Assembly: GCA_000442015.1 (NCBI GenBank)
Contig: KE561154.1
Location: 1 to 64,000 of the forward strand
DNA from: Rozella allomycis CSF55
Taxonomy: Eukaryota
Reading direction: 5' to 3'
DNA: 64,000 bases
A program made the position numbers and the translations under genes. Shown here piece by piece: positions 9,049 to 64,000 of the stretch (position 1 is the stretch's first letter; the number at the start of each line of letters is the position of its first letter). The notes below the pieces were generated by a model. The model was given only the letters and a program-made list of their open reading frames with translations, ran no database searches and was not told the DNA's origin.

Positions 9049-9121
9049 GCCTCTTTAGCTCAGTTGGCAGAGCGGTTGCCTCGTAAGCAAAAGGTCGGGT
9101 GTTCGATTCTCCCAAGAGGCA
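9049..9121 (+). tRNA. tRNA-Thr(CGT)
   Basis: GCCTCTT/AAGAGGC acceptor stem, TAGCTCAGTTGGCAGAGC D arm, TTGC-CTCGTAA-GCAA anticodon arm, TTCGA T loop, T run downstream. Confidence 0.93.
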
Positions 9122-11973: not shown

Positions 11974-12046
11974 GGGCTTATAGCTCAGTTGGTAGAGCGC
12001 ACGCTTTGCATGTGTGAGGCCCCGAGTTCAAACCTCGGTAAGTCCA
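11974..12046 (+). tRNA. tRNA-Ala(TGC)
   Basis: GGGCTTA/TAAGTCC acceptor stem with the G3:U70 Ala identity pair, CACGC-TTTGCAT-GTGTG anticodon arm, TTCAA T loop, poly-T terminator. Confidence 0.95.
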
Positions 12047-19616: not shown

Positions 19617-22131
19617 ATGATGTTGAGCCGACAGATTGCGCGAGTATGAGAATGAATGTAATCACACGTAGTGTACTAGAGGGATACCATTTTACGCTTG
19701 CTATTCATCAACTCCGATGAGCAACTTTGAAAAGATGCGCTACTTGGACTATGCCAAGATTGAACGCAATATCGACATTGTACGTGATCGACTTGGCCAT
19801 CCACTGACGCTTGCCGAGAAGATTGTGTATGGGCACTTGGACAATCCAAAGGAGCAAGATATTAAGAGAGGGAAAAGCTATTTGAAATTGAGGCCCGATA
19901 GAGTTGCATGCCAGGATGCGACCGCCCAGGTAAATGCATATTGTATTTTCTGAGATAGATGGCTCTGTTGCAGTTCATGTCTGCTGGAATACCAACTGTA
20001 GCTGTACCAACAACAGTTCATTGTGATCATCTGATTGAGGCACAGTTGGGTGGACCTAAAGATTTGAAGAGGGCGCAGGTAGAACGATTTGTTGGTGTTT
20101 ATAGGATATTAACAAGGAGGTTTATGATTTTCTGGCTACAGCCTCCGCTAAGTATGGTATCGGGTTCTGGAAAGCTGGAAGTGGAATTATCCATCAAATC
20201 ATCTTGGAAAACTATGCATTCCCTGGTGGACTGATGATTGGAACTGATTCGCATACACCAAATGCTGGAGGTTTAGGGATGGTTGCTATTGGTGTTGGAG
20301 GTGCAGATGTAAGTCATGATTAAGTGGTCAGAGTAGGCTGTTGATGTGATGGCAAATATTCCATGGGAATTGAAATGTCCAAAGGTTATTGGAGTGAAAT
20401 TGACAGGAAAGATGTCAGGATGGACTGCACCAAAAGGTACTAATTAAGTAGTCGTTATATGTAGATATCATTTTGAAAGTTGCGGGAATATTGACTGTTA
20501 AAGGAGGAACAGGAGCTATTATTGAATACTTTGGACCAGGAGTTGAAACATTCTCTTGTACTGGGATGGCGACTATTTGTAACATGGGCGCTGAGATTGG
20601 AGCCACAACTTCAGTATTTCCATTTAATCAAAGAATGGCAAAATATTTGGAAGCAACAAAAAGACCATGTAACTTAATAAGAGTTGGATTGATTAATAGA
20701 TATAGCGAAAGCTGCGTATGAATATGAACATATATTGAAGGCTGATGAAGGATCTAAATATGATCAAGTGATTGAAATTAATATGAGTGAGCTTGAACCC
20801 CATGTGAATGGGCCGTTTACTCCTGATCTTGCAACACCAATATCTAAATTGAAGGAAGTCGCAGAGAAGAATCAATGGCCAAAAGATATTAAAGTAGCTC
20901 TGATAGGAAGTTGCACAAACTCATCATATGAAGATATGAGCAGATCAGCTTCATTGGCTAAACAAGCAATGAATGCTGGTTTGAAGGCTAAAAGTCAATT
21001 CACCATAACGCCAGGGTCTGAACAAATTAGATCAACGATTGAAAGAGATGGAATTATGAAAACATTGAATGATTGTGGCGGATTAGTTTTAGCGAATGCT
21101 TGTGGTCCATGTATTGGCCAATGGGATAGAAAGGATGTTAAGAAGGGCGAAAAGAATACAATCATTACCTCGTACAATAGAAACTTCACTGGTAGAAATG
21201 ATGCGAATCCAGCTACCCATTGCTTTGTAGCTTCACCTGAAATTGTAACAGCCATGGCATTTGGTGGAAGCTTAACATTCAATCCATTAAAAGATACTTT
21301 GAAAACATCAGCAGGAAAAGAATTTAAATTTGCAGAACCTAAAGGTGATGAACTTCCACCAAGAGGATTTGACCCTGGCCAAGATACATATCAAGCCCCA
21401 CCAAAGAATAGAAACAATGTTAAAGTTAGCGTTGATCCAAAGAGTAACAGACTTCAATTATTGGAACCATTCAAATCATGGGATGGAAAAGATTTAACTG
21501 ACTTGCCAATCTTAATTAAAGTCTTAGGCAAATGCACAACTGATCACATTTCAATGGCTGGTCCTTGGCTTAAATACAGGGGTCATTTGGATAACATTTC
21601 TAATAATATGTTGATTGGCGCAATTAATTCTGAAAATAAACAAGCCAACAATATTAAGAACATCTTTACTAACTCTTATGGTTCAGTCCCCTCTGTTGCA
21701 AGAGATTACAAAGCAAGAGGTATTCAATGGGTCGTTGTTGGTGATGAAAATTATGGTGAAGGTAGCTCAAGAGAACACGCCGCCCTTGAATGTCGTCATT
21801 TAGGTGGCATCGCTGTGATTACAAAGAGTTTCGCCCGTATTCATGAAACAAACTTGAAGAAACAAGGAATGATGCCATTAACATTTTCAAACCCCGCAGA
21901 TTATGATAAAATTAGTCCTTCAGACAAGTTGTCCTTTAAGAATCTAGAAAAGAACTTCGTCCCTGGAAAGGTATTTCTATTTATATCTTGATAATTTAGC
22001 CACTTGTTGCTACTGTTAAGCGTTTAGATGGTTCCACCTTTGATATTACGTTGAACCACACTTTTAATGAAAATCAAATTCAATGGTTCAAGGCAGGAAG
22101 TGCTCTTAATGTAATGGCTGCTGCTAAATAA
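19617..22131 (+). CDS. ACO1: Mitochondrial aconitase, multi-exon
   Basis: [57 protein letters not shown] and [10 protein letters not shown] motifs; Arg-rich presequence; introns include 19644-19671 and 19930-19958. Confidence 0.97.
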
Positions 22132-43648: not shown

Positions 43649-46600
43649 TTATTCATTTGATGACAAAATATTTGAAGAATTCTTTCTTAGAGAATTGACC
43701 ACTTCGATAGTTTCTTTTCTGTTATTGATAGATTCTAATTGAGACAAGGCTTTAGTGATTAACGCTTCCCTTTTATTTAATATTTTACGATGTCTTTGAA
43801 ATTCATGAGATAAAGATTGATACTAGAATAATAACAATAAAGAATAAATTTACTTCTTTTTCTAATTTTTTGTATTTCAGTTCAAAATCTTCAACTTGTT
43901 TTTGTTTTAAAGCTAATTGATCTCTTAATTGGGAATTTAACTTTGAAAGAGAATCAGCTTTAGCTTTTAATGTTTCAATTGTGGGATCGTTTGAAGCTGA
44001 TTGATGAATTTTGTTTATTTCTTCTAAATGTTTAATTTTCCTATTTGAATTTTCTAATTGTTTAGTCAAGGATCTAAAAATAGAATTGAAAATAGATTAC
44101 TCTAATTTTGAAGAATAATCTTGTTCTTTTTCATAAAATAATTCATTTGAATTTTCAAAGGCTAAAGAAAGTTTTTTATTATTTTCTTCTAATTTTTCAA
44201 ATTGAATTAAAAGATTTTCATATTCTTTTTTGAATAGATGATCTGAATGGCCATTTAATGAAAATTTATTTTGTAGATTGAAATATTCATCAGTCAAATC
44301 TTTAATTTCTTTTCCTAATTTATCATTCAATTCTTTATATTTATTTTTTTCAGTTTCCATTAATAGATTCTTTTCTTTCAATAGATCTATTTCCATTTTA
44401 GATTCATGTAGATCTTTTTTCAATCTTGAAATTTCATTATTTTGTTTTAAATTTTGTTTTGAATTATTTTCTAAATCTTTTCTTGTTACATTCAAATCTT
44501 TAGTTAGCTTTTCTATTTCGTTAGAAAGTGATCCAATTTGTTGTGAATATTCTTCAACCTTTTTGGTCAACTTGTTATTCTGACTGGTCAATTTTCTATT
44601 TTCATTTGTCAAATTATTGTTCTGATTGTTCATCTCATTAGAATAACCTTCAATTTGCTTTTCTAATTTCAACTTTTCTTGCTCCAATTGTTTCTCCAAT
44701 TTCAACTTTTCTTGCTCCAATTTCAACTTTTCTTGTACCACTTTCTCTAATTCCTTCTCCTTTTCAAATAACTTTTCTTTCTCTTTCTCCAAATTTCTCT
44801 TTTCTTCTCTTTCCACTCTTAAATCTTTCTTTAAACTTTCATTCTCCAATTCACCTTCTTCCATTCTCATTTTATAATTCTTGAATAGATTTTCTAGATT
44901 ATTCAAATAAGATTTAATAATAGATTCAACAGAAGAAATTGAATTAAATTGAACTTCAACTGGATCTAAGCCACCTAGATTAAATTTCTTTAAAATTTCA
45001 AATAAATTCTTTTGAATTGAACTTAGAATCAATTGACTGGAATTTAATAACGATTTACTAGATTCCATTTCTTTTCTCATTTCTTCTATTTCTGCTTTGG
45101 ATGATTGACTGTACAGTTTTTCTTGTTGTTTTTTCTATAACTTTAATGAATTAATTTTACTTGTTTAGAAAATGCTTCAGATGTTTCTTTCAACATTTCA
45201 TCCTTTTCTTTAATCAAACTCTTTAATATTTCAATCTCTTGTATCTTATTCTCCACAGTAGCTTCCAACCTCTTCATGTGCAAGTTGACTTTATTATCTT
45301 CATTTTCTTTATTCTCTTGAATCATCTCCACTTGTTGTCGTTGATTTTGAATTTCAATCTTGTATTCATAAATTTGTTTTTCATATTTGTTAATTTCATT
45401 TTCCTAAATTTCATAAATAGATTAGTAAATTTACAAAATCAATTTTAGATTTTTCATAAATAGATTTCAAATTATGAAATTCATTTTCTTTCAACTCTAA
45501 ATTATTCTTGTACAATTCAATTTCGTTTGAAAGTTCTTTAATCACAATTTTATTTGAATTCAATTTTTCAGAGTTTAGATTTATTTCATTTATTAAATTC
45601 TCTTTATCTTTTTCCAATTCATTTATTATCTAATTACATTGAACTGCATGGATTACTTTGTGATACTTTTTAGCAGAAGAAGCAAATTCATCTTCTTTCT
45701 GGGCCAAGTAAGATTTCAATTGTTCTTCTTTAGATAATTCTGATTTCAAAACTTTTAATTCTTTATGAAAATTTTCTTCCTTTTCAACTGAAATTGAATT
45801 GACAATTTTTAATGAATTTTGAACTTGATTTAATTTATTTTCTAATTGAATAATTTCATTCTTTTGCATTTCAATTTCATTTCTTGCTTCTTCCAATTCT
45901 ACAAGATTTGAATCTAATTCAGTTTGGTTCAAATTCAATTCAAAATTTTTCTGTTCTAAATTTACTTGCAATTCATCCAACTGTGATTTATACATCTTTA
46001 TCTCTTTTTCATATTCCACATTCTTCTTTCCTTGTTGCTTCAATTCCTTTTCAAGTTTCTTCATTTCAAAATTTATTTCTTCAATTTCACTCTTCTTTTC
46101 ATTCAAACTTTTCAATAAAGATTTATTTTCATTTTCTAATCTACTAAATTTACTCTTTAAAATATTCCATTCTGAACCCTTGTCAATTTCTACCTCTTCA
46201 GTTTTCAAAATTTCAAATATTCTTGTTTTCTCATTCAATGATTTTTCATATAATTTGTTTCTCTCTTCAATTAATTCATTTTTCAATTTTTCTTTTTCAA
46301 TCTTTAAATTTTCTCTTTCAAGTTTTACATTTTCACAATCTATTTTGGAATTTTCAGTTTCTATTTTTAGTTTTTCAATTTCAGCCTCCAATGAAACTAT
46401 TCTCTTATTTTCATTTGTTAATTTATTTTGTGATATTTTATATTCTTTTATTATTTGTTCATATTTCTGTATCTTATTATTCAACAAATTCAACTCTTTC
46501 TTATTCATTTGAAAATCTTGTATTGAAGAATTCAAATCATGTAAACTTGTTTCCTTTTCTTTCATCTTGTAAACTAAATCTTCAATTTCTTTTTCTTTTT

Positions 46601-48389
46601 TATTCAAAGTTTTTTTAATTAAATCCATTTCTTGTTTAATATTCTTCATTTCTTCATTCAATTTATCATTCTTTGCCTTTAAATCATCTTGAATTTGTTT
46701 CATCTTTTTCATTTCTTTAATTTTATTGTTTATTAAATCTTCTTTGGATAATAAACTAAATTTCAAAATATCATTTTGTCTATTCATTTCTTTAATCTCA
46801 TTTTCATATCTTTTATTAATTTCTGAAATTTCATTTTTCAATTCCGAAATTTCCAATTCTCTTTCCTTTAAACTTTCAACGCTTCCATCGATATCTTTTT
46901 CAACTTTAATAATTTCGTTTTCTTTATATTTCAATTTCTCTTTCATTTCAATCATATTTGTTTCCATTTTTATCAATTGTTTTTCTTTCTCTGCTAAATC
47001 CTTCATTAAATCTTTTTCTTTTTGTTTAAATTCATTCAATTGAACAGAAAACATTAATTCTTTCTCTTGGATAATTTCTTTTACTTCTTCTTGAAAACTT
47101 TTCTCTCTTTCTTTCAGCCCTTGCTTCATTCTTTCTATCAATTTTTGATTTTCTTGCTTAATTCTCTCTTTCTCATTCTTTTCTATTTCAATCTCTCGTT
47201 CCTTTTCTTTCTCAACTTGTTCAATCTTGTGTTGAAGAGAACTTATTTCTCTCCTGTAACCTTCAATCCTCTCTAGCATTTTTTCTTGTAAATCTTTAAA
47301 CACTTTTTCATCTTCGTTTTGTTTATTTTGGAACTCCAGAATTATTTCATTCTTTTCTTTGACATTTTCAGATTCTCTTTTTATCAATTCTTTGAATTTT
47401 TTAATCTCTTCTTCCTTTTGTTCAATCAACTTTGTTAATTCTTCTTTAGCTTCTCTTTCTTTATTCTTCACTAATTCTTGCTTATCATTTAATTCTTTCT
47501 CCTTTTCTCTCAACTCTTTATCTTTTTGTTTCAATTCATTATCTCTTTCTTTCAATTCCCTATCTTTTCCATGCAATTTATTGTCCTTTTCCCTCACTTT
47601 TTCTTCTCTATTCTTCAATTCTTCATTCAATCTTCTTATATCATCATCCTTTGTAACAATCATTTTTCTTAGCCTCTCTTGCTCTTCAATCAACTGCTCA
47701 CCCTCCATTCTCATACTCTCCCTCAACTTGTTCATCTCTTCTTTCATTCTTTCCTCAATTTCTCCAATCTTTTCCTTTAACAATTCACTCTTATTTCATA
47801 ATAGATCCCTTACTTTTCATTATACAATTTGTTATTAGATTCTTCTGCCAGCTGTCTTTGAAACCTCTCTTCCCTTATGACCCACATAAACCAATCTTAC
47901 TCCAACTCTCCAATAATCTCCTCATTATTCACTTTCCTATTCACATCAACCAAACTTATTTACTCTTTCCTACATAAACACCCCAACCAAATCTTACTGT
48001 TCAATCTCCTTTGCACTCAAATGCTCAATCAAAGCCTCCAACTCTCCAATCCGCCTATCCCCCAACCCCAAATCTCTTACCCAACAGCCTCATCATACCG
48101 CTTCTCACTCTTCTGCACCCGGATCTGCAGCTCCAAATTCTCATCCGCCAAACTGTCCATATTCGCAGGCAGCTTCTTGCTCATCTTCTCCTGCAGCGCA
48201 AACAACTTCAACTTTAAATCAAAATTCTCCTTTTTCATCTGGTTCAGCGCCTTTGCTAAAATTTATCGTCTCTTACATTCTCATTTTCTTTCAAAGATGA
48301 ATCGCCATTTTGGGCCTTTAAATCGATCGGCTTTGCGGGGGAATACGGAAGCTGCCTTTCATACGGGCCTCCATTCTGCATCGTCATAA
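43649..48389 (-). CDS. Large coiled-coil gamma-tubulin receptor with an N-terminal CM1 (Cnn_1N) motif, multi-exon
   Basis: Spliced N-terminus SLKENEN|ALNQMKKENFDLKLKLFALQEKM, followed by more than 1000 aa of heptads. Start codon uncertain. Confidence 0.8.
44664..44734 (-). repeat. Coding repeats encoding QEKLKLE
   Basis: Repeated tttcaacttttcttg units inside the CM1 gene. Confidence 0.6.
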
Positions 48390-48737: not shown

Positions 48738-49790
48738 TTAAAAGGCTCTTCTTCCTGAAGTGGAAGGCAACTCTGTGAAAAAAACAAACGGCGACGCCCT
48801 ATTTTCAGATTTTTCCCATCCTATGTTTAGCGTAATAGGACTCAATGTCAAAAAATTACTGTCACTGCGTCTTCGTATCACCAATGCATTATGCGGTTGG
48901 GTGCCGTCAGGTTTGTAGTACAATACGTCATACTTTTCAAGAAAACTAGAGCCACGGTGCTTATTCATTTTTATATCGTTAACACACGAAACCGTTTTTC
49001 CACTATCCAGATCAAGGCAAATCAAAGTATCGGGATCTTTGGGGTCGACTCTGCTCAATGTTCTTACTTGCATCAACAATATATTGTGTTGCTTGGCTAT
49101 TGCTGAATCCATGCAATCTATTTTTTGAATGCCATGGTCCCACACGGTCCATTTATTACTTTTACCACACTCATCCTTCAAATCGTATCCGATCGGTTCA
49201 CATCTTTTGAGGTCTGGAATAAACATCCTGTTCTGTTTGCAGAAATCGAAACAAGCACGAACATCAGCATTGTTTGTGTCAACCAATTCAAGTACGAGAT
49301 TGTTTTTGCATTCCGAACAAGTTACCTTGCCATTTTCTTCCTTTATTTTGTCGTTATCACAGTCTTTCGGCTTTGGATAACACTTCATCTTATTTTGGGA
49401 TCTAAAGTTGTCGCCGCAATCCGAACAGCTACCATCTTTTGCGTAGCTTTTGCAACCATCAATTTTAGGAACGCAGATATCGCCTTCAGCTTTCGCCATT
49501 GGATCTCCGCATTCGTCACATTGAAATAGTCCTTTAGGTTTTTTACATCCTTCCTGTTTTCGAAAACACTTGTAGTCAATGAGTGTCGCGTCTATTTCGC
49601 AAGCTTGGCAAGTTCCTATATTTTGGTCGTTGTGAATGGCACAAGAAGGTACGTATTTGTCTTTTTTGATGCATCCCATAGCTTTCGGATAAGTTACAAC
49701 ACGCTCGTCACTTGGGCAGTTTGGGATGTCAGGAAGCGAGGATACTAGCGCTATAGCTATAGCTGTCAAAGACAATAATCTTAGAACCAT
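48738..49790 (-). CDS. Secreted cysteine-rich (CxxC-repeat) protein
   Basis: Signal peptide MVLRLLSLTAIAIALVSS; repeated CxxC units (CQAC, CDEC, CSDC, CSEC, CFDFC); no TM anchor; intronless. Confidence 0.8.
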   Translation of the reverse strand: MVLRLLSLTAIAIALVSSLPDIPNCPSDERVVTYPKAMGCIKKDKYVPSCAIHNDQNIGTCQACEIDATLIDYKCFRKQEGCKKPKGLFQCDECGDPMAKAEGDICVPKIDGCKSYAKDGSCSDCGDNFRSQNKMKCYPKPKDCDNDKIKEENGKVTCSECKNNLVLELVDTNNADVRACFDFCKQNRMFIPDLKRCEPIGYDLKDECGKSNKWTVWDHGIQKIDCMDSAIAKQHNILLMQVRTLSRVDPKDPDTLICLDLDSGKTVSCVNDIKMNKHRGSSFLEKYDVLYYKPDGTQPHNALVIRRRSDSNFLTLSPITLNIGWEKSENRASPFVFFTELPSTSGRRAF

Positions 49791-49925
49791 GCTACAGGAG
49801 GTGGCATGGGCCGTTTTTATATCCGAGAAAGTTAAAAATAGAATCTACTTCTAATTTTGGAACAGATGGTTTTAATTAGTTCTACAACAAAGACAACATA
49901 TATTTAAATAAAGAAATTTATTTGA

Positions 49926-52900
49926 TTACAAAGGCTTGATCTTCCTTTTTGATGGATGGAAAAAGTATGTTGCAGCCAATACTAGAATGAAAGCGAGGGT
50001 AGTAGATAGAACAATCAAAAATTGTGTCGAGACCAAAAGAGGTACTCCAGTTATACTAACAGAAAACTGAGTCTTTAATGTACAATAACTAGTAAGATTA
50101 TAGAGCATGAATTACCTGAAATCAGGATCTATGACTAGAAGGGTAAAGAAATAATGGCCATCTTCTGAACCTCGCCACGATAACCCATTCACATTTGAAG
50201 AATTCATGATGGGAAAGGGCAACGATGATTCCGAAGAAGAAAGAGAATATGCCCCAGAATAGCAATCTTTTGAATAAACATTGGTCCAGTATGTTAATGG
50301 ATTTAATATTTTTGCCAAGGAATCCCAATTATTGTCAGGTTTTCTATTACACCCTGCTGTTTTCAGATTTAAACCATAAGAATAATCTATGCGCCTTAGA
50401 TCTTCCCATACAACGAAATTTGAATCAATATATTTAATAAAAGTGTCTCCATCATACAATGCTACTTTTGGTGTAAAAGTTTCAGCGTAATAAGCTTCTA
50501 TTGGATTTCCATAAGTGTCACAATCATAAGAAATTGTCTAGTCATGAATTGAATTGACTAGTTACTTTAGAACTGGAAGAGACACTCCCATCGCTGTTTA
50601 AAAATGAGCCAGAAGGAATGGTTATTGTTGTTGAAGGACAATCAACAGTTGAATTTGAAACAACTTTTATCCTTCGTTGACTGGGGCATCCAACTCTAAT
50701 TACAGTTGACTGTTTAGCTAAAGATTTGAGTTTACTGAAGAATATTCATCACACGCCAAGTTTGCTGGATAAACTGAAAATCTAATATTTGTCACACCTT
50801 GATTCTTTATTGAAAATGGACGTAAAGTTATGTTTGTAAAATAGTTTGAAATAATTCCAGATCTTGATTTTGTTGTTACTATATCTTCTTTAATGAGATT
50901 GGCATTTGAACTTGATATTGAGATTTCAGTTTCAGAGTTTGAATTGTATGAAACGGTCAATGGAGCGGAATCATCTAAATATTAATCTGAAGACATGTTT
51001 ATACAAGCATCCAATGTATAGTCAGGTTGACCCTGAAATGTAAGATCAGAAAAGGGGCATGTTAAAGAATCATTTTCACTGTCTTCAATAGAATAACGTT
51101 ATTACTTTATAGAAACTTGACTCTGAGCGTCAATAATTCTAACAGAAATTGAACCATCTGATTTCAATGTGCTAACAAGGATATTTCCCAAATGATCAAA
51201 CTGAAAATTCACAATTTCAGTTGGAAGGCAGCCAGTGAAAGAAACTTCAACTACTTGATCGTAATCAAAAATTCCATAGAATAATCAAATTAATCTAAAA
51301 AATAGAAAATACCTGTTGTCAGTAGTTGAAATAGCAAAGTGACTATTTTGACTAGAAAACACGCGGTTGTAAACCCTTGGCGCTGAAAATAGATCGCTAT
51401 CAGTAATTTTAAATTTTGTTTCCATAAATAATTCGCCTCCATTGAGACTTTTTGTATGAAATTGAATTTAATACCTTGTTAAAACAATATCACTTAGCAA
51501 GAACATTTGAGGAGTTCCATCAACAGTGGAATGCAATTGAAAATGTTTTGCCTGTTTTATTTAAGCGATTTCATTTACGTTTGAATTGAAGAGACTTTTA
51601 AAAGGAAAAAAGTTTAATTCAAAAGAATATTTAGTAGTGAAAATGCCATTCAAATAAGATAAAATCAAATCTTTGCCAAATGAGTTTCTACAGAAAATAA
51701 ATATGTTTCCATTTGAAGATTCAACAGCAACATCATAAATTTGCCTTGTTGAATTGCCATTCCCCAATGGAAGAACTATTCCAGAAAAACTATAGCCGCC
51801 ATCATTGGAGAAATATATTTTGCCTTGACTAGAATAGATTGTTGAATTATATGGCTTATTATCAAATGCGAATAGATATTTAGAAAGTGGCAATGATTCT
51901 AATCGGAGAAGATCACACGCATCCATATCTCTTAACACATTCAATGAATTAACATCTGGAATTCCTCTACTCTTCACTATATTTCTAATCAACTTATCAA
52001 CAACATACACCCCAGTGTCAGTCAAAAACGCTATCGTTGAATCAGCAAATGCAGCAGAATACAAAAATGTATAATTTATATTCAATTTATAAAATTTCGT
52101 TGTTGATTTGAAATTATCTTGCGAGAATGAAAACACTCCATTAGGATAAATATCTGATAATCCAATAGAAACACTATTCGCACATCTGTCAGTTACAATA
52201 TTCAAATACGATGAATTCGTAGCTGCCGATACATTCAAACTCCCAATATTAATAAATGCTGAATTTATAGAATATTTTCCAATGTTAATCACAAATTCAT
52301 TTGCATATGATCTGCAACTCATCACAGACACACTGTTTCCTCCAATAGTCAATGCTATAGGTATTCCCTGTTCGGAAGGAGTCACATAAGCACTCCAATA
52401 CCTTTAATAATTCAAAAATTAGTTCATATACCCATCCTTAAAACTAGGCTCTGAAACCGAGGCCATTGAATACGATCTCGTTAATAACACCGGTGCATCT
52501 CCATTCGCATATATAGCTTTTGATAATTGTCCACTGGCAACTGAAGGTAGTACAGCCGTTCCATTATTCTCAAAGTCGCTCGATAAGTATGTACTATACA
52601 ACCAAACCCGCACTTCGCTCTTTCCATTCTCAATGTAATTAGTTTGCGATACAGAATTCATTCCCGGCTTCGCTGCAAGGTACCATTCATAACATCGTTC
52701 AACTTGAAAGTGTACGAAAAATTCATGCCTCGTATTTATATCACCATCAACAATCACGTAAAAGTCATAGTTTCCGGAAACACTGCAAGTCAGTGATATC
52801 GAATAAATAAACGTTGACCCTGCACTCGCATTATCATTGATCGTATTTGTCATATTAGATAGAAAATAACAATTGTTGGCAAGCTCCACAGTCACATTAG

Positions 52901-53078
52901 CTGCTGCAGATTTCACGTACACATTGACCTAGATATTTCTAACTGTAAATAATGCTACTGGATAGTTTGTCTGGAAATAGGGCTTTGAATCTATTAATAA
53001 TTGGGGCTCATAATATATAATTAAATGTGAATATGTAAAGGAACATAAAAGAGCAACCAATGTCAAAAAGAACCGCAT
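49926..53078 (-). CDS. CATSPERE: CatSper channel auxiliary subunit epsilon/delta-like type-I membrane protein, multi-exon
   Basis: Signal peptide, CYEWY, Asp-box YFSNDGGYSF, VGCPSQRRI, YDC..YGNP, FTPKVALYDGDTF....SNFVVWE..R.DYSY, AGC, and VIDPDFS|YCTLKTQFSVSITGVP followed by one TM helix. Confidence 0.75.
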
Positions 53079-53223
53079 GCGATTGACACTCGTCTATACC
53101 AGGGTGAATGTGAATTTCAAAATTGAGATTAAGCCTATTAAGAATTAGTTAGTAGCTATGGTTTGATTTAGTATTGATAGAATTAATAAAAAAGTGTAAT
53201 ATATTTGTACATAATTTATAGTG

Positions 53224-54533
53224 CTACAATTTTCTATTACTTTGCAAATCTACCAACCAAGCAGTATCTTTGCTCATTTCTTCAAGTCGTGAGATCAACC
53301 TGTTAATTGCAAAGTACTCATCGTGAGATGAATTTCGTGGGATTGCTTCACTAGATCCGAACAAGTTTTTCGGTTTCTCAGCTGCTTGCATCAAAAGTTT
53401 AATGTTATTGTCATATGCAGCATCAATAAAGGTAATAAATCTTCGTAACTCGTTTCGATCAATACTGTCGAGCATGGGAATTCCAAGAATGAATATCACG
53501 CTGTATTTTTGAATCAGAGAAATGTAATCCGCTGCACCTAGTGGCTGTTGCACTATTATAACAACAATTACTTGTCCGCACAGTTCATTGAAATGAAAAA
53601 GTGAATAATGCCCGGCGGCGACAGGGATTCTCACATTTCTGCCGAATGTTACGAGAAAATCTTCACCGACTAGTTTTACACGAAAAAAAATAAAACCTTT
53701 AGTGTCTCCAATTATTTTATGAAAGAGCTGAAGCACTTCATTTGAAGTAGTTTCAGTTACAGGACTGAAATATGTTTTAGCTGTCACATGATTATGAGCA
53801 TTATGTTTGTTAAGCCGATAATCTACACCACCATCTAAATTGATCACCCGACATTCCCTCTTAATTAGTTCAATGCAAGGAATAAAACTATCGCGCTGAA
53901 TTCCATTCTTATACAAATCTAATGATTTTCAGGTTATAAATCATCTTTACCATCAGGATGTCTATTCGATGTTGTCACAATATAAATTCCTTGCTGGAAC
54001 ATGTTTTCCAGTAATTGGCGAAGAAGCATTGCATCCGCAATGTCAGTAACCTATTTTTAAAAGCATTATTTGCGACTTGGAACTCATCCAAACAAATAAC
54101 ATTGTTCATTTGCCTTAATTCTTGGGAAACATGTCTAATAGGTTCCGCAATTTTTTCCAACTTTAATTCATGGAGGCCTAAAGATATACTTGTTGGTTTT
54201 TCTACTTTTGTGCAACGAAATCATGAAGTGATGAAAATGTGCCCGTGTTTTCCTTATCTCAGGATGTAGCGTTTCATAGAACATATTCATCAAAGTGGTT
54301 TTCCCTGATCCAACTCCGCCAAATAAATATATTCCTTTAATAGCATCAGTATTAGTTTTTTGAAATAGATATCTCTTTTTCCTGGATAATGCAATTTGAT
54401 CTGAAAAGTCACAAAGTTGATCAATAACATTTGCTTGGAACTTGTCCTCCTTGATGATCTTTTCGTTTATTTTATGGTTATATAGATCTTTTAAAGGATG
54501 CGAATTTTTTAAAAGAGCTTTGAAAAGCTTCAT
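53224..54533 (-). CDS. AFG1: Mitochondrial AFG1/LACE1 (ZapE-like) ATPase
   Basis: [50 protein letters not shown] and [12 protein letters not shown] motifs. Confidence 0.93.
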
Positions 54534-54721
54534 TCTATACTCCGACTTTACTGAAATTTGGAATTTCCAAAAATCATGTTAATAACTTTAATGAACAACT
54601 TAGTTCAGACTAATAATTTAACTCTGAAAAAAGACAACAAAGAGAGTCTATCATCCCCGTGATAATAAATGTAACTCAATAGAACATTCATAATCTTGTT
54701 GACATATACAAAAAAGTTTAT

Positions 54722-55672
54722 TTAGTTTAAACAATGTAAAACCAGTTCCAGACATTGCTGCGTAACATCAAATGTAGCGTTCCCTAATTCTGTATCAATT
54801 TCATTTGGCAAATCAATCTCTGCAAAATATTTATTTCGGGCAAGAAATAGAACTCTATTTTTCTCAATATCAACTGTACATTCCTTGGCACTTTCAACCA
54901 GAGACAAATAGAACTTTATAACAAGTTTGTTTACAATCCCATTTTTTTTCACCTTTTGCAGTTTCAAAACAGGCCTCGGCAGAGCGCGAGCAAATTCGTC
55001 CAACTCAAATTTATCCACGCCAGACTTGCCAGTAGCATCACCAAATTTTTCTTCCTTCTTCTCAGTTTGCTCAACTTCCGATATAACAACATCCTTTGTC
55101 CTATAAACCAAATGATTAACAAGCTCCCCCTTGTGCTTCATTTTTGGAATCGACCATTCCCTGCCAAGCTCAACATCATTCTTTTGCTCAACCCACGCAA
55201 GCGCAAGCTCAATTATAAACTCTTGGAATCGTTTGTCTTTCAGTGATTTCTCATACACCCCGCTATTAACACACGCATCGACGACAAGACACGCGTTTCC
55301 CGCCTTATCCGTATCATTCCTAACAGGCGACAGACTCATAGGAACCTTGTAGTTGCCAGGTTCAGCACTGCCCGCCAAAATCGCTTCCAGCTCGTCGTTC
55401 TCGATTATAGGCGGACTGGGGCAGTACGGCGAATGCACTATATTAATAAACATCTTTTGGCCAGCCTGAATTATGGCCTTTTTGTTGGAGCTGATGAGCC
55501 TTGTTTTCACAACGTAGCCGCTGACAGTGTTAATCTCTCGCTGGGAGTTCTGGGGCGGCACCAGCTGGTCGGCGGACGATGATAGCATCGACAGGATGGC
55601 GGAGGGATCGTTTACGGAAAACAAATTTGGGTCGTCTGTTTCTCGTACTTTGAGGTCTTGGGGAATGTTCAT
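54722..55672 (-). CDS. PIH1: PIH1-domain co-chaperone (Pih1/PIH1D1 family) with a C-terminal CS domain
   Basis: GYVVKT, KMFINIVHS, YKVPMSLS....DKAG..C.VVD..VN motifs and a CS-like C-terminus. Confidence 0.85.
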   Translation of the reverse strand: MNIPQDLKVRETDDPNLFSVNDPSAILSMLSSSADQLVPPQNSQREINTVSGYVVKTRLISSNKKAIIQAGQKMFINIVHSPYCPSPPIIENDELEAILAGSAEPGNYKVPMSLSPVRNDTDKAGNACLVVDACVNSGVYEKSLKDKRFQEFIIELALAWVEQKNDVELGREWSIPKMKHKGELVNHLVYRTKDVVISEVEQTEKKEEKFGDATGKSGVDKFELDEFARALPRPVLKLQKVKKNGIVNKLVIKFYLSLVESAKECTVDIEKNRVLFLARNKYFAEIDLPNEIDTELGNATFDVTQQCLELVLHCLN

Positions 55673-55929
55673 TATTGTGAAATGTGAAATTTACAAGTTG
55701 GAAATGGAGGTAAAAATATTTGGAAGAGTGTATAGGCTGTGATTTTGCAGATATTTGGTAATCTTAAATGTAAGTAATAAGGATGAATGAGATAGTCAAC
55801 AAGTATTCCACTATTTTGCTCAAAGTCTATATCGAGTCGTAATGAGTGAGTTTGTTGTGTACGAGATGCCATTGATCGATCAGTTGAAACTGCTGTCCGT
55901 AGAAATTCGCCAATAGTTACAGAAAAGCA
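55570..55929 (+). repeat. Copy 1 of a diverged direct repeat (PIH1 5' CDS plus upstream region)
   Basis: Aligns by eye with 58800-59194 throughout. Confidence 0.9.
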
Positions 55930-59297: not shown

Positions 59298-62200
59298 TTA
59301 ATGTTGAATCTGACGTTTTCTAGCCTTTTTAGTCGCTTTCCATTTTTCCACAAATAACCTATAAATCATCCAAGCATTGAAATACCTTATCCTGCAAACA
59401 GCCAAAACAGCTACCGCGCACTTTCTAAACTTATTTAGTTTATCAACTCCATTTCCATTCCCATCACACAACTGATTCAAAGAAACATTCCTAATTAATC
59501 TTCACCTGCAAACTTACGTTCCATGCACACCACCCAACAGCAACACGAGCAGCTTCTTTTGGTAAATCAAATCGGCTCTGAAACCGGCTTCTCTGTGAAA
59601 CTTTGATTTGGCGTATTGCAATTCTCTGATAAGCAGGACCATTTGTTCCTGATATTTCTTCAAATCTGATTTCAATTTGTCTGCTGATGCTGGATCGTGC
59701 CATTTTATTTTTGATTTCTTGAATTGACTTAATTCGAGATTGAGATTGTTGATTTCGCTTTCGTAGGTTTTGATTAGAAGCTTTTCGTTCCTTTGGATCT
59801 TGTCTACTTGCTGTTGAAGGGATTTTATTAGTTCATCCTTGTTGGAGTCTTTAATCAAGTCAGCTACTCTTGTTTCCCATACTAATGTTGATTCTTTTAG
59901 TTCCTTTTGAATATTGAATAGTTGGTTTACCTTTTCTTTTAATTCTTTAGATTTCAAATTTTCAGCCAATTCGTGAGCTAAAGTGTCTCTTTCATTTTTA
60001 ATTTCAACCAATTCAAATTTTATTAAATCTCTTTCATTCTTGATTCTTATCATTTCATCATTCACCTCTACTTGATTTTCTTTAGATATACTCAATTCAG
60101 CTTCAAGGTCTTTATTTCTAGATACCATTTCTATATAATCAATTTGAATTTTTTTATATGTAGATTCCATTTCATTGTGTTCAGTTTGAAATCTATCCAG
60201 CTCAATTTGAAGTGCCTCTTTTTCATCTCTATTTTTAATAACTTGAACCATCAATTCTTGTTTTTCCAATTTAAGATCATTCAATTCATTATCAATTTTC
60301 GCTTTAATATTCTCCACTTTAACATTCAACTCTTTACCCTTTTCCACCAACACTTGCAATCTATTCATCACGTTGCCTACAAACAAATTAATATTATTAG
60401 AAATATTATCAAACCTCTTACTGCTCATATCAACATTTTGATGCAGTAATTGTTGCTGTAATCGTTGTATCTCCATTGCAAGTATATTGATATCACTCTT
60501 AAACTCACTTTCAGACTTCAAATGCATTTCTTTTGCTTCTAATAGGGCTTGTTGTAGTTTTTCATTTAAAATAGATTCTCTTTCCAATAAAATTCTAAAA
60601 TTCTTAATTTCTTCAAAATTTATTTCTGAAATTTCGGATTTCTGACCCTTGTCAGAGAAGAATTGTTCTAAAAGGGAATTGTATTTAGAAAGAGAGTCAA
60701 TTACATGATTGAAGTTATTGTTATTTGATTCTAGCTGGGATATTTGAAGACGAAGTTTATCATTTTCAAGAGTTTCTTTCTTGATAGTGTCTAGTAGTAA
60801 ACGATTCTTGTCAGTTTCTAAAGGTATTTGTTTAAGAGCAGATAAAAGAGCATCAAATTTTTCTGAAGTTTTGTCAATTTCTAATTCTAATTGATCAAAT
60901 TCAACACTAGTTTAAATCAATTAAATAAAATACCTTTTGTTTTCAGTGTCATGAGTAGAAAATTCATCATCATTATTTTGATTTTCTAATTCAATTATTT
61001 TATTATTTTTAGAATCAATTTCAGAAACATAATAAGAAATTGTTGCTTCTTGAGAAGTTACAACATCTTGCATTTCCTTTAAACTTTTTTCTAAATTATT
61101 TTTCTGTTGTTCAAGTATAAAATTAAAATTCAATAATTTGTCAATTTCTAATTTCTTATTTTGATCATTAAATTTAATTGTTGAAATATTCTCCTTTAAT
61201 TCATCAATCAATGAAACTATTAAATTCTTTATTGCTTTACAGTCACTTTTAATTAAATGGATTGATTTTAAAGTTTGATTCTTTACAGTGCTTAATTTCC
61301 ATTTTAATTTCTCAGTTTCATTTAAATTCTCATTTGAATTCTTTTCTACAATTTCATTCAATTTAACTTTTTCATTTGTTAAAGAAACAATTTGATCATT
61401 CAATGATTTTACATTTTCTTTTAATTCTGAATTTTCTTTACTCAGTTCATTAAATTTATTAGTTTGATATTCATTGAGATTATTAATTAACTCTTCATTC
61501 TTAACTTTTATTTCATCAACATAATTATTCAACTCTTCATTCTTAGTTTCCAATACTTTCACAATATCAGCTAACTTTGTATTTTTGGATTCCAAATCTT
61601 CAATTGTGATGGATGAATCTTTGATTTGGTTCTTTAATGTTTCATTTTCTAATTCTAATTCATTCAATGCATTTCCACGAGATGCTTTCAAATCATTATT
61701 CATTGAATTTAATAAAATAATCTCATTTGTCAATTCACTGCATTTATTTTCAAATTCTTTACATTTCACATCCAAATCTTCCCTTGCAGTCTTTAATTCA
61801 TCACATTTAAACTTGAACTGTTCATTACTAGTCTTCAGTTCTTCATTTTTACCTCCAAGAGATTCATATTCAACTTTGAGAGATTCATATTCAACTTTGA
61901 CTGATTCAAATTGGCTACGCAGAGATTCATATTCATTACGCATTATGTTACACTCATTACGTAACCCTGTAACTTCAACTTTAACAGATTCACATTCAAC
62001 TTTGAGGGATTCATATTCACTACGAATCGCATCACATTCAATAAGAATTGTTTCATTCTCGTTGCGTAGAGATTGGTTTTCATCTTTAAGAGATGTAACT
62101 TCAACATTGAGATATTCATTTGAATTGTGTAGCGCTTCATTCTCATCTTTAAGAGAGTCATTTTCACGTTTAAGATATTCATTCTCACTTTTAAGGGATT

Positions 62201-64000
62201 CATTTTTAACTTTGAGATTTTCATTCTCATCTCTAAGAGAATCATAATCATCTTTAAGGGATTCATAGTCACTGTCAAGTTGATCATATTTAGATTTATA
62301 TTCTTCAATTGTATTTTCATAAACATTTTTTTCTTTATCAAATTTCTCTTTAATATTTTCATTATTTTCTAATTCAGATTGTAGATGATTATTTTCAGTC
62401 TTCAAAAGATTAATTAAACCTTCAAATTCATCAATTTTAATTTTTAAATCTTCAACGTAGAAAGAATTTAAAGAAGCTTCTTGAATTTTCTCATTAATTT
62501 TTTCAATTTGGAAATTTAGAGAATCTAAATCACAATCTGGGTTTATTTCTTTTAATAGATTTGAAAGTGAATCTAGAATTAATTCATCTTTAATAAATTT
62601 ATTTATTTTATTTTTTATTTCTTCTTGATTCTCTTCCTTTTCTTTTAATTCATTCTTCAAATTCAATTCATTTTCTTTTAGTAAATCTATTTCATCTTTT
62701 AATGAATTTATTTCAACTTTAAAGAATTCTATTTCATCTTGCAATCCTTTTAATTCATTCAATTCAATCATTGTTTTATCAAACCTATCAGCCAATTCAA
62801 TCAATTCTGCTTTGTTAGTGTTTAATTCTGAATCTTTAGCATTCAACTCTACATCTTTATCTTTCAACTCACTTTCTTTAGCGTTTAACTCACTTTCTTT
62901 AACATGTAGTTTCGATTCTAATTCATTAATAATTTCTTCTTTAATCTTTAATGATTCATTTAAAGCTTCATTAGCTCTTTCATGTTTAACTAACTCTTTA
63001 CTTAAATTATCAATACTCGTTTCTTTAATTTGAATTTTAGCTTTAATTTCAACCAATTCTTCATTCAAAATAAAAATTTGTTTTTCATTCTCATTAATTT
63101 CTTCTCGCAAACTTTTTCTCAAATTCTTTATTTCTTCTTTCAATTCCAAATTTTCTGCATTCATCTCATCAATAACTTGATCCTTGTATTTTATTGTTTC
63201 AAGATTAGAGATATCTTCTTTCAACTTGTCATTCATTTCTTCAATTGTTGAAACTTCATTTAGAAGAGAAGAAACTTTTTCTTTCAAAGTTGAAACTTCA
63301 ATTCTTAATTTATTGTTAGATTCTTCTTTATCTCTTAACTTACTCGCAAGGTCTTCATTGGTCAACTTAGTTGATTCTATTTCTTTTATTAATTCTTCAC
63401 TTTTAACTTTTTCATTATTTAATTCATTCTTCAATTCTGAAATCATTTCATTCTTTCTATTCAATTCTTCTTCATTCATTTTATCAGATTTAATCAACTC
63501 TGTAACCCTTTCTCTCTCCTTTTCAATTAATTCATTCAACTCTTTATTCTTTGCTATTTCAACGTTAATTGCTTCATTCAATTCAGCAATAGTAGCTTCA
63601 TGTAACTTCATAGCTTCTTCATTCTCCTCTCTCTCTACTCTAATCATTTCGTTCAATCTATTATTTTCTAAATTGATTTGGTTCAACTGTTGGAGAAATT
63701 CTTCAGCTCTTAATTTCTCTTTTTCAAGACATTCATCAAGCTCCACAATCTTCATTTGTTGTTCTTTATAACTCCCTTCCATGTTTGATTGATCAGATTT
63801 GATTAATTCACTCAATTCTTTATTCTTTCTCTGTTCTTCTTTAATCCTTTCATTCAATTGTTCATTCTTCAATCTCCCTTCTTCCACAAGCTGTTCAATG
63901 TTTATCTTTTCAGTTCTAACCTTTTCAATCAATTCTTCATTCTTTAATTTCATTTCTTCTAATAAATTTTCATTCTTTAATCTCTCCTCTTCCACTATCT
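59298..64000 (-). CDS. Pericentrin/Pcp1-like giant coiled-coil protein with a C-terminal PACT domain (5' end outside the window)
   Basis: SKFHREAGFRADLIYQKKLLVLLLGG and KFRKCAVAVLAVCRIRY...KW match the PACT pattern; more than 1400 aa of heptads precede them. Confidence 0.85.
61850..62280 (-). repeat. 21-nt coding tandem repeats (heptads E[YN]ESL[KR]x)
   Basis: Repeated gattcatattcaactttga-like units inside the PACT gene. Confidence 0.75.

What the first reader, a model, noticed from the sequence alone, without database searches (positions are those of the whole stretch)
49926..53078. CatSper epsilon/delta-like auxiliary subunit hidden by tiny introns in a fungal-like genome
Seen: the ORF fragments splice into one roughly 950-aa type-I membrane protein. 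It has a signal peptide (ATG 53078), CYEWY, Asp-box motifs, VGCPSQRRI, ISYDC.TYGNP, FTPKVALYDGDTF....SNFVVWE..R.DYSY and AGC..W..W..C. Removing the 27-nt intron 50089-50115 gives VIDPDFSYCTLKTQFSVSITGVP before a single TM helix. Established: this ordered motif series is what I recall for CATSPERE/CATSPERD, ectodomain subunits of the sperm-flagellum Ca2+ channel, and CatSper pore homologs are known from some zoosporic fungi. Inference: this compact, probably parasitic genome keeps a CatSper complex that controls the zoospore flagellum. Fragmentary gene calls would miss it.
Basis: partly seen in the sequence, partly recalled or inferred. Interest (0 to 1): 0.85.

Follow-up and report, generated by a model that had tools for sequence, protein, structure and literature searches.

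The report
Rozella CatSper-epsilon gene, mis-annotated
This is a real gene for a relative of the sperm calcium-channel helper protein CatSper epsilon in the fungal parasite Rozella allomycis, split by ten tiny introns and wrongly fused to a neighbouring gene in the public annotation.

Summary
On the minus strand, 53078-49926 splices through ten 26-30-nt introns into a 957-aa type-I membrane protein.

- **Family:** it belongs to the CATSPER epsilon/delta family, epsilon type. Pfam CATSPERD-E_C scores E 9.7e-21 and CATSPERE_NTD2 scores 2.6e-7. phmmer gives 7.3e-21 to mouse CATSPER epsilon, 7EEB_H. An AlphaFold model of the N-terminal 699 residues hits 7EEB_H first (E 1.4e-22).
- **Gene model:** a 42-homolog HMM aligns end to end with it, 554.7 bits.
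- **Organism:** Rozella allomycis CSF55.
- **Public annotation:** GenBank EPZ32421.1 fuses the gene to the upstream AFG1 ATPase and drops the signal peptide and the TM helix. It scores 410 bits.
- **Descent:** the tree places Rozella at the base of a fungal clade, which fits vertical descent.
- **Open points:** intron 5 ends TG instead of AG and holds an in-frame TGA. No RNA data or genome were available, so expression and the presence of pore subunits are untested.
- **Novelty:** CatSper epsilon homologs in unicellular eukaryotes are already in print. This is a new member of a known kind plus an annotation correction.

The parts
49926..53078 (-). Whole coding region of the CatSper-epsilon-like gene: 11 exons and 10 introns, 2874-nt CDS, 957 aa plus stop TAA at 49928-49926.
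   Evidence: Spliced model built. Homolog HMM 554.7 bits, HMM positions 5-951 of 967.
52959..53078 (-). Exon 1 (120 nt): start ATG at 53078, with a signal-peptide-like hydrophobic N-terminus (aa 1-17, window 53078-53028).
   Evidence: Adds 10 bits and extends the HMM alignment from position 44 to position 5. Alone it is not significant.
52929..52958 (-). Intron 1, 30 nt, GTA...AG, holds an in-frame TAG.
   Evidence: Retention costs 6.2 bits.
52432..52928 (-). Exon 2 (497 nt): N-terminal domains. Pfam CATSPERE_NTD2 maps to window 52428-52694.
   Evidence: E 2.6e-7, 31 bits against a cut-off of 27.
52402..52431 (-). Intron 2, 30 nt, GTA...AG, holds two in-frame TAA.
   Evidence: The same splice is used in EPZ32421.1.
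51579..52401 (-). Exon 3 (823 nt): first part of the beta-propeller, with the Asp-box-like SNDGGYSF.
   Evidence: Pfam Beta-prop_CATSPERD E 1.2e-4, 21.9 bits, below the cut-off of 27. Foldseek hit to 7EEB_H. Motif located.
51552..51578 (-). Intron 3, 27 nt, GTA...AG, holds an in-frame TAA.
51475..51551 (-). Exon 4 (77 nt).
51448..51474 (-). Intron 4, 27 nt, GTA...AG, holds an in-frame TAA.
   Evidence: Retention costs 14.5 bits.
51313..51447 (-). Exon 5 (135 nt): second Asp-box-like motif SLNGGELF and the conserved strand ending ...TTDNR.
51286..51312 (-). Intron 5, 27 nt, GTA...TG (non-canonical 3' end), holds the in-frame TGA at 51287-51285.
   Evidence: Its removal restores the family motif NR[VIL]F.G. 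The alternatives score 9.0 to 38.2 bits lower.
51106..51285 (-). Exon 6 (180 nt): last propeller strands.
51079..51105 (-). Intron 6, 27 nt, GTA...AG, holds two in-frame TAA.
   Evidence: The GenBank 39-nt alternative scores 6.3 bits lower.
51005..51078 (-). Exon 7 (74 nt).
50975..51004 (-). Intron 7, 30 nt, GTA...AG, holds an in-frame TAA.
   Evidence: The GenBank 57-nt alternative scores 20.6 bits lower.
50736..50974 (-). Exon 8 (239 nt): middle region between the propeller and the stem. No Pfam match.
50710..50735 (-). Intron 8, 26 nt, GTA...AG, shifts the frame.
   Evidence: The same splice is used in EPZ32421.1.
50566..50709 (-). Exon 9 (144 nt): holds VGCPSQRRI.
50538..50565 (-). Intron 9, 28 nt, GTA...AG, shifts the frame.
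50116..50537 (-). Exon 10 (422 nt): CATSPERD/E C-terminal (stem) domain. With exon 11, the Pfam match spans window 49962-50534.
   Evidence: PF22850 E 9.7e-21, 74.7 bits against a cut-off of 27.4; 7EEB_H E 7.3e-21.
50089..50115 (-). Intron 10, 27 nt, GTA...AG, holds an in-frame TAA.
   Evidence: The same splice is used in RKP17495.1. The GenBank EPZ32421.1 43-nt alternative scores 66.9 bits lower and loses the TM helix.
49926..50088 (-). Exon 11 (163 nt): SYCTLKTQF motif, a single TM helix (about aa 921-947, window 50039-49959), a 10-aa basic tail HPSKRKIKPL and stop TAA.

Best explanation
**What it is.** Window 53078-49926 (minus strand) is one gene of Rozella allomycis CSF55, separate from the AFG1 ATPase gene upstream. 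It has 11 exons and ten 26-30-nt introns.

**Product.** The 957-aa protein is a vertically inherited ortholog of CATSPER epsilon with these parts, in order:
- a signal peptide;
- N-terminal domains, including the epsilon-specific NTD2;
- an Asp-box beta-propeller;
- a middle domain;
- the CATSPER delta/epsilon stem domain;
- one TM helix;
- a 10-residue cytosolic tail.

**Shown here.** Homology over the whole length, the fold, the topology, the exon structure and the fungal phylogenetic position.

**Inferred, not shown.** As in mouse sperm, CATSPER epsilon ectodomains are needed to build the extracellular canopy and hence the whole channel (bioRxiv 10.1101/2024.11.18.624146, abstract). By analogy, the Rozella protein would sit in the membrane of the zoospore's single posterior flagellum as an auxiliary subunit of a CatSper-type Ca2+ channel. 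It would help assemble and tune the channel that converts external cues into Ca2+-driven changes of flagellar beat during host finding.
For: **Sequence**
- Pfam CATSPERE_NTD2: E 2.6e-7, 31 bits, above the cut-off.
- Pfam CATSPERD-E_C: E 9.7e-21, 74.7 bits.
- phmmer of the C-terminal 203 aa against PDB: mouse CATSPER epsilon 7EEB_H 7.3e-21, delta 7EEB_G 1e-7.
- Exhaustive search: 212 proteins at E<=1e-3. The best full-length hits are 35-38% identical over the matched C-terminal domain.
- Of the 20 hits looked up, 17 clusters carried a source name and 3 had none. The named organisms are chytrids, the blastoclads Blastocladiella and Sorochytrium, Hondaea, Rhodelphis and animals. The animal entries are labelled CATSPER epsilon or C1orf101-like.

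**Profile**
- A family profile matches 7EEB_H from residue 35 to 973 (E 7.6e-238). It matches delta only from profile position 268 on. This profile includes animal epsilon sequences.
- A 42-homolog HMM without Rozella scores my model at 554.7 bits as one domain, HMM 5-951 of 967.

**Structure**
- AlphaFold2 of residues 1-699, read through the introns: pLDDT 77, pTM 0.80.
- Foldseek top hits: 7EEB_H (E 1.4e-22, TMq 0.61), then gamma and delta.

**Topology**
- Only two hydrophobic segments, the N-terminus and residues 912-948. There are 13 N-glycosylation sequons.

**Gene model**
- All 13 alternative splice choices tested score lower, by 0.2 to 66.9 bits.
- AFG1 is complete before the fusion point (Pfam profile 6-354 of 361). 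The fusion needs a gap of about 325 nt, against gaps of 26-57 and 102 nt elsewhere in that model.

**Tree**
- Rozella is sister to blastoclads plus chytrids inside a fungal clade, SH-aLRT 96.
Against: - Intron 5 ends TG, not AG. Without its removal an in-frame TGA truncates the protein at about residue 553. The gene may therefore be broken in this strain.
- There is no expression evidence. No RNA holder was listed and 0 contigs were laid.
- Whether the pore subunits CATSPER1-4 and the beta and gamma subunits exist in Rozella could not be examined, because no genome was held.
- A published atlas says CatSper components are not universally retained in flagellated fungi (PMC13358043, section 6 read).
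- The N-terminal 699 aa alone find nothing in PDB by phmmer at E<=1.
- Pfam Beta-prop_CATSPERD is below its cut-off, 21.9 against 27 bits. It is not reported at all for the 699-aa read-through.
- Three exons have no Pfam match.
- Rozella sits on a long branch (2.05) with unusual amino-acid composition, so its exact place in the tree is unsure.
Confidence: 0.8

Rival explanations
1. The gene is a recently disabled pseudogene, or a hypomorph, in strain CSF55. Under this reading the AG acceptor of intron 5 has mutated to TG. The 27-nt segment with its TGA then stays in the mRNA, or the nearby AG at 18 nt is used, which still leaves the stop. Only a truncated ectodomain of about 553 aa without a TM helix would be made.
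For: - No canonical GT-AG intron removes TGA 51287-51285 while keeping the conserved strand.
- The 18-nt GT-AG option leaves the stop in frame.
- Both GenBank models resort to a 99-nt intron that deletes conserved residues. This suggests, but does not show, that both assemblies carry the same sequence here.
- A strain kept on its host in the laboratory could tolerate loss of a host-finding function. This last point is inference.
Against: - Everything else is intact. Nine canonical introns, no frameshift and no other stop occur in 2874 nt.
- The model aligns end to end at 554.7 bits, including the part downstream of the lesion.
- The segment is exactly the modal 27 nt and starts GTA like the other nine.
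- Four of the other nine introns also skip an internal AG at 16-23 nt. Acceptor choice in this genome is therefore not simply 'first AG'.
- TG acceptors are known as rare alternative 3' splice sites in other eukaryotes. This is recalled and comes from no call.
Confidence: 0.15
2. The protein is a true CATSPER epsilon homolog, but Rozella has lost the pore subunits. The ectodomain protein would then work on its own, for example in adhesion to or recognition of the Allomyces host surface.
For: [quoted passage not shown]
- Rozella has a reduced genome (recalled).
- The ectodomain is a large glycosylated Asp-box propeller, a fold shared with sialidases and GH74 glycosidases.
- The presence of pore genes could not be checked.
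Against: - In mouse, epsilon is lost together with the whole channel and has no known independent role (bioRxiv 10.1101/2024.11.18.624146, abstract).
- The most conserved part in Rozella is the stem plus TM region. In the mouse complex this region contacts the channel. The contact is recalled from the 7EEB paper, which was not read here.
- According to Chung et al. 2017, epsilon follows the lineage-specific pattern of gene loss seen for beta and gamma (PMC5362262, passage read).
Confidence: 0.12
3. The GenBank model EPZ32421.1 is right. Under this reading the locus encodes one 1205-aa fusion of an AFG1-like ATPase with a CatSper-like ectodomain, and has no signal peptide or TM helix.
For: - It is the deposited annotation, and a second partial model (RKP18372.1) repeats the fusion.
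- All its exons map exactly onto the window.
Against: - The fusion needs a gap of about 325 nt that skips the AFG1 stop codon. The other gaps in that model are 26-57 nt and one of 102 nt.
- The AFG1 domain is complete before the junction (profile 6-354 of 361).
- The model scores 410 bits in two pieces, against 554.7 bits in one piece for my model.
- Its choices at introns 5, 6, 7 and 10 cost 38.2, 6.3, 20.6 and 66.9 bits.
- An ectodomain with 13 glycosylation sequons and conserved cysteines, fused to an ATPase of the AFG1 family and lacking a signal peptide, makes no topological sense (inference).
Confidence: 0.02

Closest known systems
Mouse CATSPER epsilon (PDB 7EEB chain H; also 9UBW_H)
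   Same: - Same domain order from NTD to TM.
- The C-terminal 203 aa match at E 7.3e-21.
- The family profile is collinear with chain residues 35-973.
- It is the best structural match for the N-terminal 699 aa: E 1.4e-22, TMq 0.61, 677 columns.
- Type-I topology with a short tail.
   Different: - Only 14% identity in the structural alignment.
- The N-terminal two thirds are undetectable by single-sequence search.
- The host is a unicellular fungal parasite with a zoospore, not an animal sperm.
- Partners, localisation and function are untested here.
CATSPER-epsilon-like proteins of zoosporic fungi, e.g. Chytriomyces hyalinus KAJ3399848.1, Blyttiomyces KAJ3332498.1 and Blastocladiella emersonii KAI9183050.1. 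Some GenBank entries are named 'cation channel sperm-associated protein subunit delta-domain-containing protein'.
   Same: - Nearest relatives: 35-38% identity in the C-terminal domain and 22-28% over the full length.
- Gap-free alignment at 9 of 10 exon junctions.
- Same fungal clade.
   Different: - Rozella is the deepest and longest branch.
- The gene is far more AT-rich.
- It is split by ten 26-30-nt introns.
- It lacks the acidic C-terminal tail ending LWKxKxE that 5 of the 9 aligned homologs carry.
CATSPER delta (7EEB chain G)
   Same: Shares the propeller-to-TM part and the Pfam CATSPERD-E_C domain.
   Different: - Delta lacks the N-terminal domains. The profile matches it only from position 268 on.
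- It scores far lower, 1e-7 against 7e-21.
- Chung et al. 2017 state that delta appears later in evolution than epsilon (PMC5362262, passage read).
- The Rozella protein has NTD2, so it is of the epsilon type.
GenBank models of the same locus: EPZ32421.1 ('ATPase, AFG1-like domain-containing protein', 1205 aa), RKP18372.1 (partial, 1038 aa) and RKP17495.1 (partial, 194 aa)
   Same: The DNA is identical. 16 exon blocks of EPZ32421.1 map exactly onto the window. Introns 2, 3, 4, 8 and 9 are shared, and RKP17495.1 shares intron 10.
   Different: - They fuse AFG1 to the ectodomain and omit exon 1.
- They use a 99-nt intron across the TGA.
- They use longer introns at positions 6 and 7.
- EPZ32421.1 mis-splices intron 10, so the TM helix is lost.
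- None is named CatSper.

Membership tests
CATSPER epsilon (CATSPERE/CATSPERD superfamily) | C-terminal stem domain plus TM (Pfam PF22850, CATSPERD-E_C) | tested here: met
   E 9.7e-21, 74.7 bits against a cut-off of 27.4, profile 26-206 of 215. phmmer to 7EEB_H gives 7.3e-21.
CATSPER epsilon (CATSPERE/CATSPERD superfamily) | Epsilon-specific second N-terminal domain (Pfam PF22843, CATSPERE_NTD2) | tested here: met
   E 2.6e-7, 31 bits against a cut-off of 27, profile 1-80 of 86. 33.7 bits on the GenBank protein.
CATSPER epsilon (CATSPERE/CATSPERD superfamily) | Beta-propeller ectodomain (Pfam PF15020, Beta-prop_CATSPERD) | tested here: inconclusive
   Pfam gives 21.9 bits, below the cut-off of 27, and no hit on the 699-aa read-through. 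The fold is supported otherwise: Foldseek to 7EEB_H at E 1.4e-22 over 677 columns, two Asp-box-like motifs and collinearity with the family HMM.
CATSPER epsilon (CATSPERE/CATSPERD superfamily) | Type-I topology: signal peptide, large ectodomain, one C-terminal TM helix, short tail | tested here: met
   Hydropathy shows only two hydrophobic segments, residues 3-22 and 912-948. The tail is HPSKRKIKPL. No dedicated signal-peptide predictor was run.
CATSPER epsilon (CATSPERE/CATSPERD superfamily) | End-to-end collinearity with family members | tested here: met
   HMM of 42 homologs: one domain, HMM 5-951 of 967, protein 3-952, 554.7 bits. Alignment.
CATSPER epsilon (CATSPERE/CATSPERD superfamily) | Pore subunits CATSPER1-4 and the canopy partners beta and gamma encoded in the same genome | not testable with these tools
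   No genome is held for the window. No pore-subunit sequence was given by any tool. The per-species table of the fungal flagellar atlas is in a supplement that is closed (PMC13358043).
CATSPER epsilon (CATSPERE/CATSPERD superfamily) | Physical membership of a flagellar CatSper complex, with expression in the flagellated stage | not testable with these tools
   No RNA holder was listed. 0 contigs were laid. This needs bench work.
CATSPER delta | Architecture without the epsilon N-terminal domains, with a late (animal) origin | tested here: not met
   NTD2 is present. Delta matches the family profile only from position 268 on and scores far lower. Foldseek ranks delta third. Delta's later origin is stated in PMC5362262 (passage read).

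The most novel reading that the evidence does not exclude
Rozella allomycis is the reduced endoparasite at the base of the fungus-microsporidia lineage. Under this reading it keeps a working CatSper-type flagellar Ca2+ channel and uses it to steer its zoospores to the Allomyces host, perhaps by sensing host-derived cues. The host's own pheromone sirenin is reported to activate human CatSper (Syeda et al. 2016, as cited in bioRxiv 10.1101/230292, passage read). The gene would also be expressed through a non-canonical 27-nt GT...TG intron. That would mean 3' splice-site choice in this tiny-intron genome is set by length more than by the AG dinucleotide.
Probability: 0.08. Interest if true: 0.75.

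Novelty: new member of a known kind. Interest (0 to 1): 0.4.

Why it matters
- **Annotation:** this corrects a public record. A Rozella allomycis protein filed as an 'AFG1-like ATPase' is really two genes, one of them a complete CatSper-epsilon-type subunit.
- **Evolution:** Rozella is the flagellated sister of the non-flagellated microsporidia. An epsilon subunit here, placed at the base of the fungal clade, fits an origin of the CatSper canopy before the animal-fungus split (Cai et al. 2014, as cited in PMC5362262). It also gives a parasite in which Ca2+ control of zoospore swimming and host finding could be studied.
- **Splicing:** the TG-ended 27-nt intron is a small, testable oddity for splicing in tiny-intron genomes.
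- **Limits:** none of this overturns current views. Chytrid and blastoclad homologs are already deposited, some with CatSper names.

Tried and rejected
- **Whole genome:** not held. No search for CATSPER1-4, beta, gamma or EFCAB9 was possible.
- **RNA:** no RNA holder was listed. The one listed metatranscriptome run laid 0 contigs on 49800-53300.
- **Word-index search:** the C-terminal piece with 'longer' lengths scored 0 of 878 candidates. The exhaustive search was needed.
- **Single-sequence PDB search:** phmmer of the N-terminal 699 aa gave 0 hits at E<=1.
- **Pfam gaps:** nothing was found for the ORF fragment 51102-51284, for 50718-50981 and 50542-50745, or for their trimmed forms 50736-50981 and 50566-50709.
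- **Papers:**
  - Cai et al. 2014 (PMC4169769) is not held. Its content is cited only through PMC5362262.
  - 'Rozella' plus 'CatSper' gave 1 paper, which does not link the two in its main text.
  - 'Rozella allomycis' plus 'calcium channel' plus 'zoospore' gave 0 papers.
- **Rejected readings:**
  - Stop-codon reassignment or a ciliate origin. The in-frame stops lie inside GTA...AG segments of 26-30 nt, two of which shift the frame, and the long exons have no in-frame stops.
  - Transfer from the Allomyces host lineage. Rozella does not group with the blastoclads.
- **Window-wide surveys of tiny introns:**
  - The modal length is 27 nt.
  - 17 of 29 same-frame junctions with a canonical solution include a 27-nt one, out of 81 junctions examined.
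  - The surveys mix coding and non-coding frames, so they say nothing about how common non-AG acceptors are.
Full report
**Observation**

On the minus strand between 53093 and 49926, stop-to-stop ORF fragments lie head to tail. Most are in one frame and are separated by single stops or short stop clusters. The DNA shows that each break lies inside a short segment starting GTA. Nine of these segments end AG; the tenth is discussed below.

Removing ten such segments of 30, 30, 27, 27, 27, 27, 30, 26, 28 and 27 nt joins eleven exons. The result is a 2874-nt CDS from ATG 53078 to TAA 49928-49926, giving 957 aa. Two of the segments (26 and 28 nt) shift the frame. This excludes a reassigned stop codon as the explanation.

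The protein has exactly two hydrophobic segments, residues 3-22 and 912-948. It also has 13 N-glycosylation sequons and a 10-residue basic tail.

**Identity of the protein**

- *Pfam on single exons:* CATSPERE_NTD2 (E 2.6e-7, 31 bits, cut-off 27), Beta-prop_CATSPERD (E 1.2e-4, 21.9 bits, below the cut-off of 27) and CATSPERD-E_C.
- *Last two exons read through the intron:* CATSPERD-E_C reaches E 9.7e-21, 74.7 bits.
- *phmmer of that 203-aa piece against all PDB chains:* mouse CATSPER epsilon 7EEB_H at 7.3e-21 and CATSPER delta 7EEB_G at 1e-7.
- *phmmer of the N-terminal 699 aa alone:* nothing at E<=1. Similarity there is visible only to profiles and to structure.
- *Profile of 43 sequences (the Rozella read-through plus 42 full-length homologs, some of them animal epsilons):* it matches 7EEB_H over residues 35-973 (E 7.6e-238). 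It matches delta only from profile position 268 on, and beta and gamma only in the propeller.
- *AlphaFold2 model of the 699-aa read-through:* pLDDT 77, pTM 0.80. Several low-confidence stretches coincide with translated intron segments.
- *Foldseek best PDB matches:* 7EEB_H (E 1.4e-22, TMq 0.61, 677 columns), then gamma 7EEB_F and delta 7EEB_G.

The protein is therefore a member of the CATSPER epsilon/delta family with the epsilon architecture.

**Organism and existing annotation**

The exhaustive search returned a 194-aa protein 100% identical to the spliced C-terminus.

A search with the N-terminal part found RKP18372.1. In the same cluster it found EPZ32421.1, 'ATPase, AFG1-like domain-containing protein', 1205 aa. 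All 16 exon blocks of EPZ32421.1 map exactly onto the window, so the window is R. allomycis.

EPZ32421.1 joins the upstream AFG1 ATPase gene to the CatSper-like ectodomain through a gap of about 325 nt. That gap skips the AFG1 stop codon and exon 1. Its other gaps are 26-57 nt, plus one of 102 nt. The AFG1 domain is complete before the junction (Pfam profile 6-354 of 361).

**Which gene model fits**

An HMM of the 42 homologs, without Rozella, gives these scores:

| Model | Score | Alignment |
|---|---|---|
| My 957-aa model | 554.7 bits | one domain, HMM 5-951 of 967 |
| CatSper part of EPZ32421.1 | 410.4 bits | two pieces |

Each GenBank splice choice that differs from mine costs bits:

| Intron | GenBank choice | Cost |
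|---|---|---|
| 5 | 99 nt | 38.2 bits |
| 6 | 39 nt | 6.3 bits |
| 7 | 57 nt | 20.6 bits |
| 10 | 43 nt, which also removes the TM helix | 66.9 bits |

Retaining any in-frame intron costs 0.2-17.2 bits. Exon 1 adds 10 bits in context but is not significant alone. Its assignment also rests on three further points:
- it begins at the first ATG of the frame;
- it has a signal-like sequence;
- it is followed by a canonical 30-nt intron.

Tiny introns are the local norm. The AFG1 gene has gaps of 28, 50, 32, 27 and 27 nt. In a rough window-wide survey, 17 of the 29 same-frame junctions with a canonical solution (81 examined) include a 27-nt one. Introns of about 30 nt with premature stops have been noted in R. 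allomycis (PMC6349667, passage read). An intron density of 2.5 per kb has been reported (PMC8476143, passages read). The density here is 3.5 per kb.

**The unsolved detail**

Intron 5 (51312-51286) starts GTA and has the modal 27 nt, but it ends TG. It contains the in-frame TGA at 51287-51285.

The only AG within reach gives an 18-nt intron that leaves the stop in frame. The next canonical option is the 99-nt GenBank intron, which deletes two conserved propeller strands. Removing exactly the 27 nt recreates the family motif NR[VIL]F.G without a gap.

Three readings remain open:
- a TG 3' splice site;
- a base error shared by the assemblies;
- a recent disabling mutation in this strain.

I could not decide between them, because no RNA run holds the locus.

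**Descent**

In a tree of 20 full-length proteins, Rozella is sister to blastoclads plus chytrids inside a fungal clade (SH-aLRT 96). It is separate from the animal epsilon sequences, the Hondaea group and Rhodelphis. Its branch is long (2.05) and its amino-acid composition is unusual, so the exact place is unsure. It does not group with Blastocladiomycota, the lineage of its host Allomyces, which argues against host-to-parasite transfer.

**Mechanism**

*Shown:* homology, fold, topology and gene structure.

*Inferred:* the function. [quoted passage not shown] Without epsilon the whole channel is absent and hyperactivation fails (bioRxiv 10.1101/2024.11.18.624146, abstract).

By analogy, the Rozella protein would be an assembly and tuning subunit of a CatSper-type Ca2+ channel in the zoospore flagellum. 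It would link external cues to Ca2+-dependent changes of beat.

This step needs the pore subunits, which I could not look for. A 2026 atlas states that CatSper components are not universally retained in flagellated fungi (PMC13358043, section 6 read). Its per-species table is in a closed supplement.

**Novelty**

- Chung et al. 2017 state that CatSper epsilon has the same ancient origin as CatSper1-4, beta and gamma, citing Cai et al. 2014. They screened Allomyces, Thecamonas, Aurantiochytrium and Salpingoeca (PMC5362262, passages read).
- CatSper genes of Allomyces are reported in bioRxiv 10.1101/230292 (passages read).
- Several chytrid proteins in GenBank already carry CatSper names.
- No paper in the library links Rozella with CatSper in its main text. 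The search 'Rozella' plus 'CatSper' gave 1 paper without such a link. The search 'Rozella allomycis' plus 'calcium channel' plus 'zoospore' gave 0.

The finding is therefore a new member of a known kind plus a correction of a chimeric public gene model. It is of moderate interest.

Noticed in passing
window 53224-54578 (-): A complete AFG1-like ATPase gene with about five tiny introns (gaps of 28, 50, 32, 27 and 27 nt) ends at its own stop 145 nt upstream of the CatSper-epsilon ATG. GenBank EPZ32421.1 fuses the two genes.
   Followed up: yes
window 54722-55690 (-): An ORF with PIH1 N-terminal and PIH1 CS-like domains (E 1.7e-26 and 2.7e-12). PIH1-family proteins include dynein-arm preassembly factors (recalled), so a second flagellum-related gene may lie 1.6 kb from the CatSper-epsilon gene.
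   Followed up: no
window 48738-49844 (-): A 368-aa uninterrupted ORF directly downstream. It encodes a cysteine-rich protein with a hydrophobic N-terminus and has no Pfam family. It may be a secreted parasite protein.
   Followed up: no
window 59514-63998 (-) and 44097-47795 (-): Very AT-rich stretches (GC 0.24-0.26) with strong negative GC and AT skew. They coincide with long ORFs giving only coiled-coil-type Pfam matches, one with the start of a PACT centrosomal-targeting domain. Same-frame junctions here have canonical 27-nt intron solutions.
   Followed up: partly
window 9049-9121 (+) and 11974-12046 (+): tRNA-Thr(CGT) and tRNA-Ala(TGC) genes.
   Followed up: no
window 20693-21991 (+): The C-terminal two thirds of an aconitase lie in one 432-aa ORF (Pfam E 2.7e-54 and 1.1e-43). 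The same-frame junction upstream, at 20675, has no canonical 3n GT-AG solution in my crude survey, so another unusual or longer intron may lie there.
   Followed up: no
introns of the gene, window 50089-52958 (-): Five of the ten introns (1, 5, 6, 7, 8) contain an internal AG 16-23 nt from the donor. This AG is skipped in favour of an end at 26-30 nt. That hints at a minimum-length rule for acceptor choice in this genome.
   Followed up: partly
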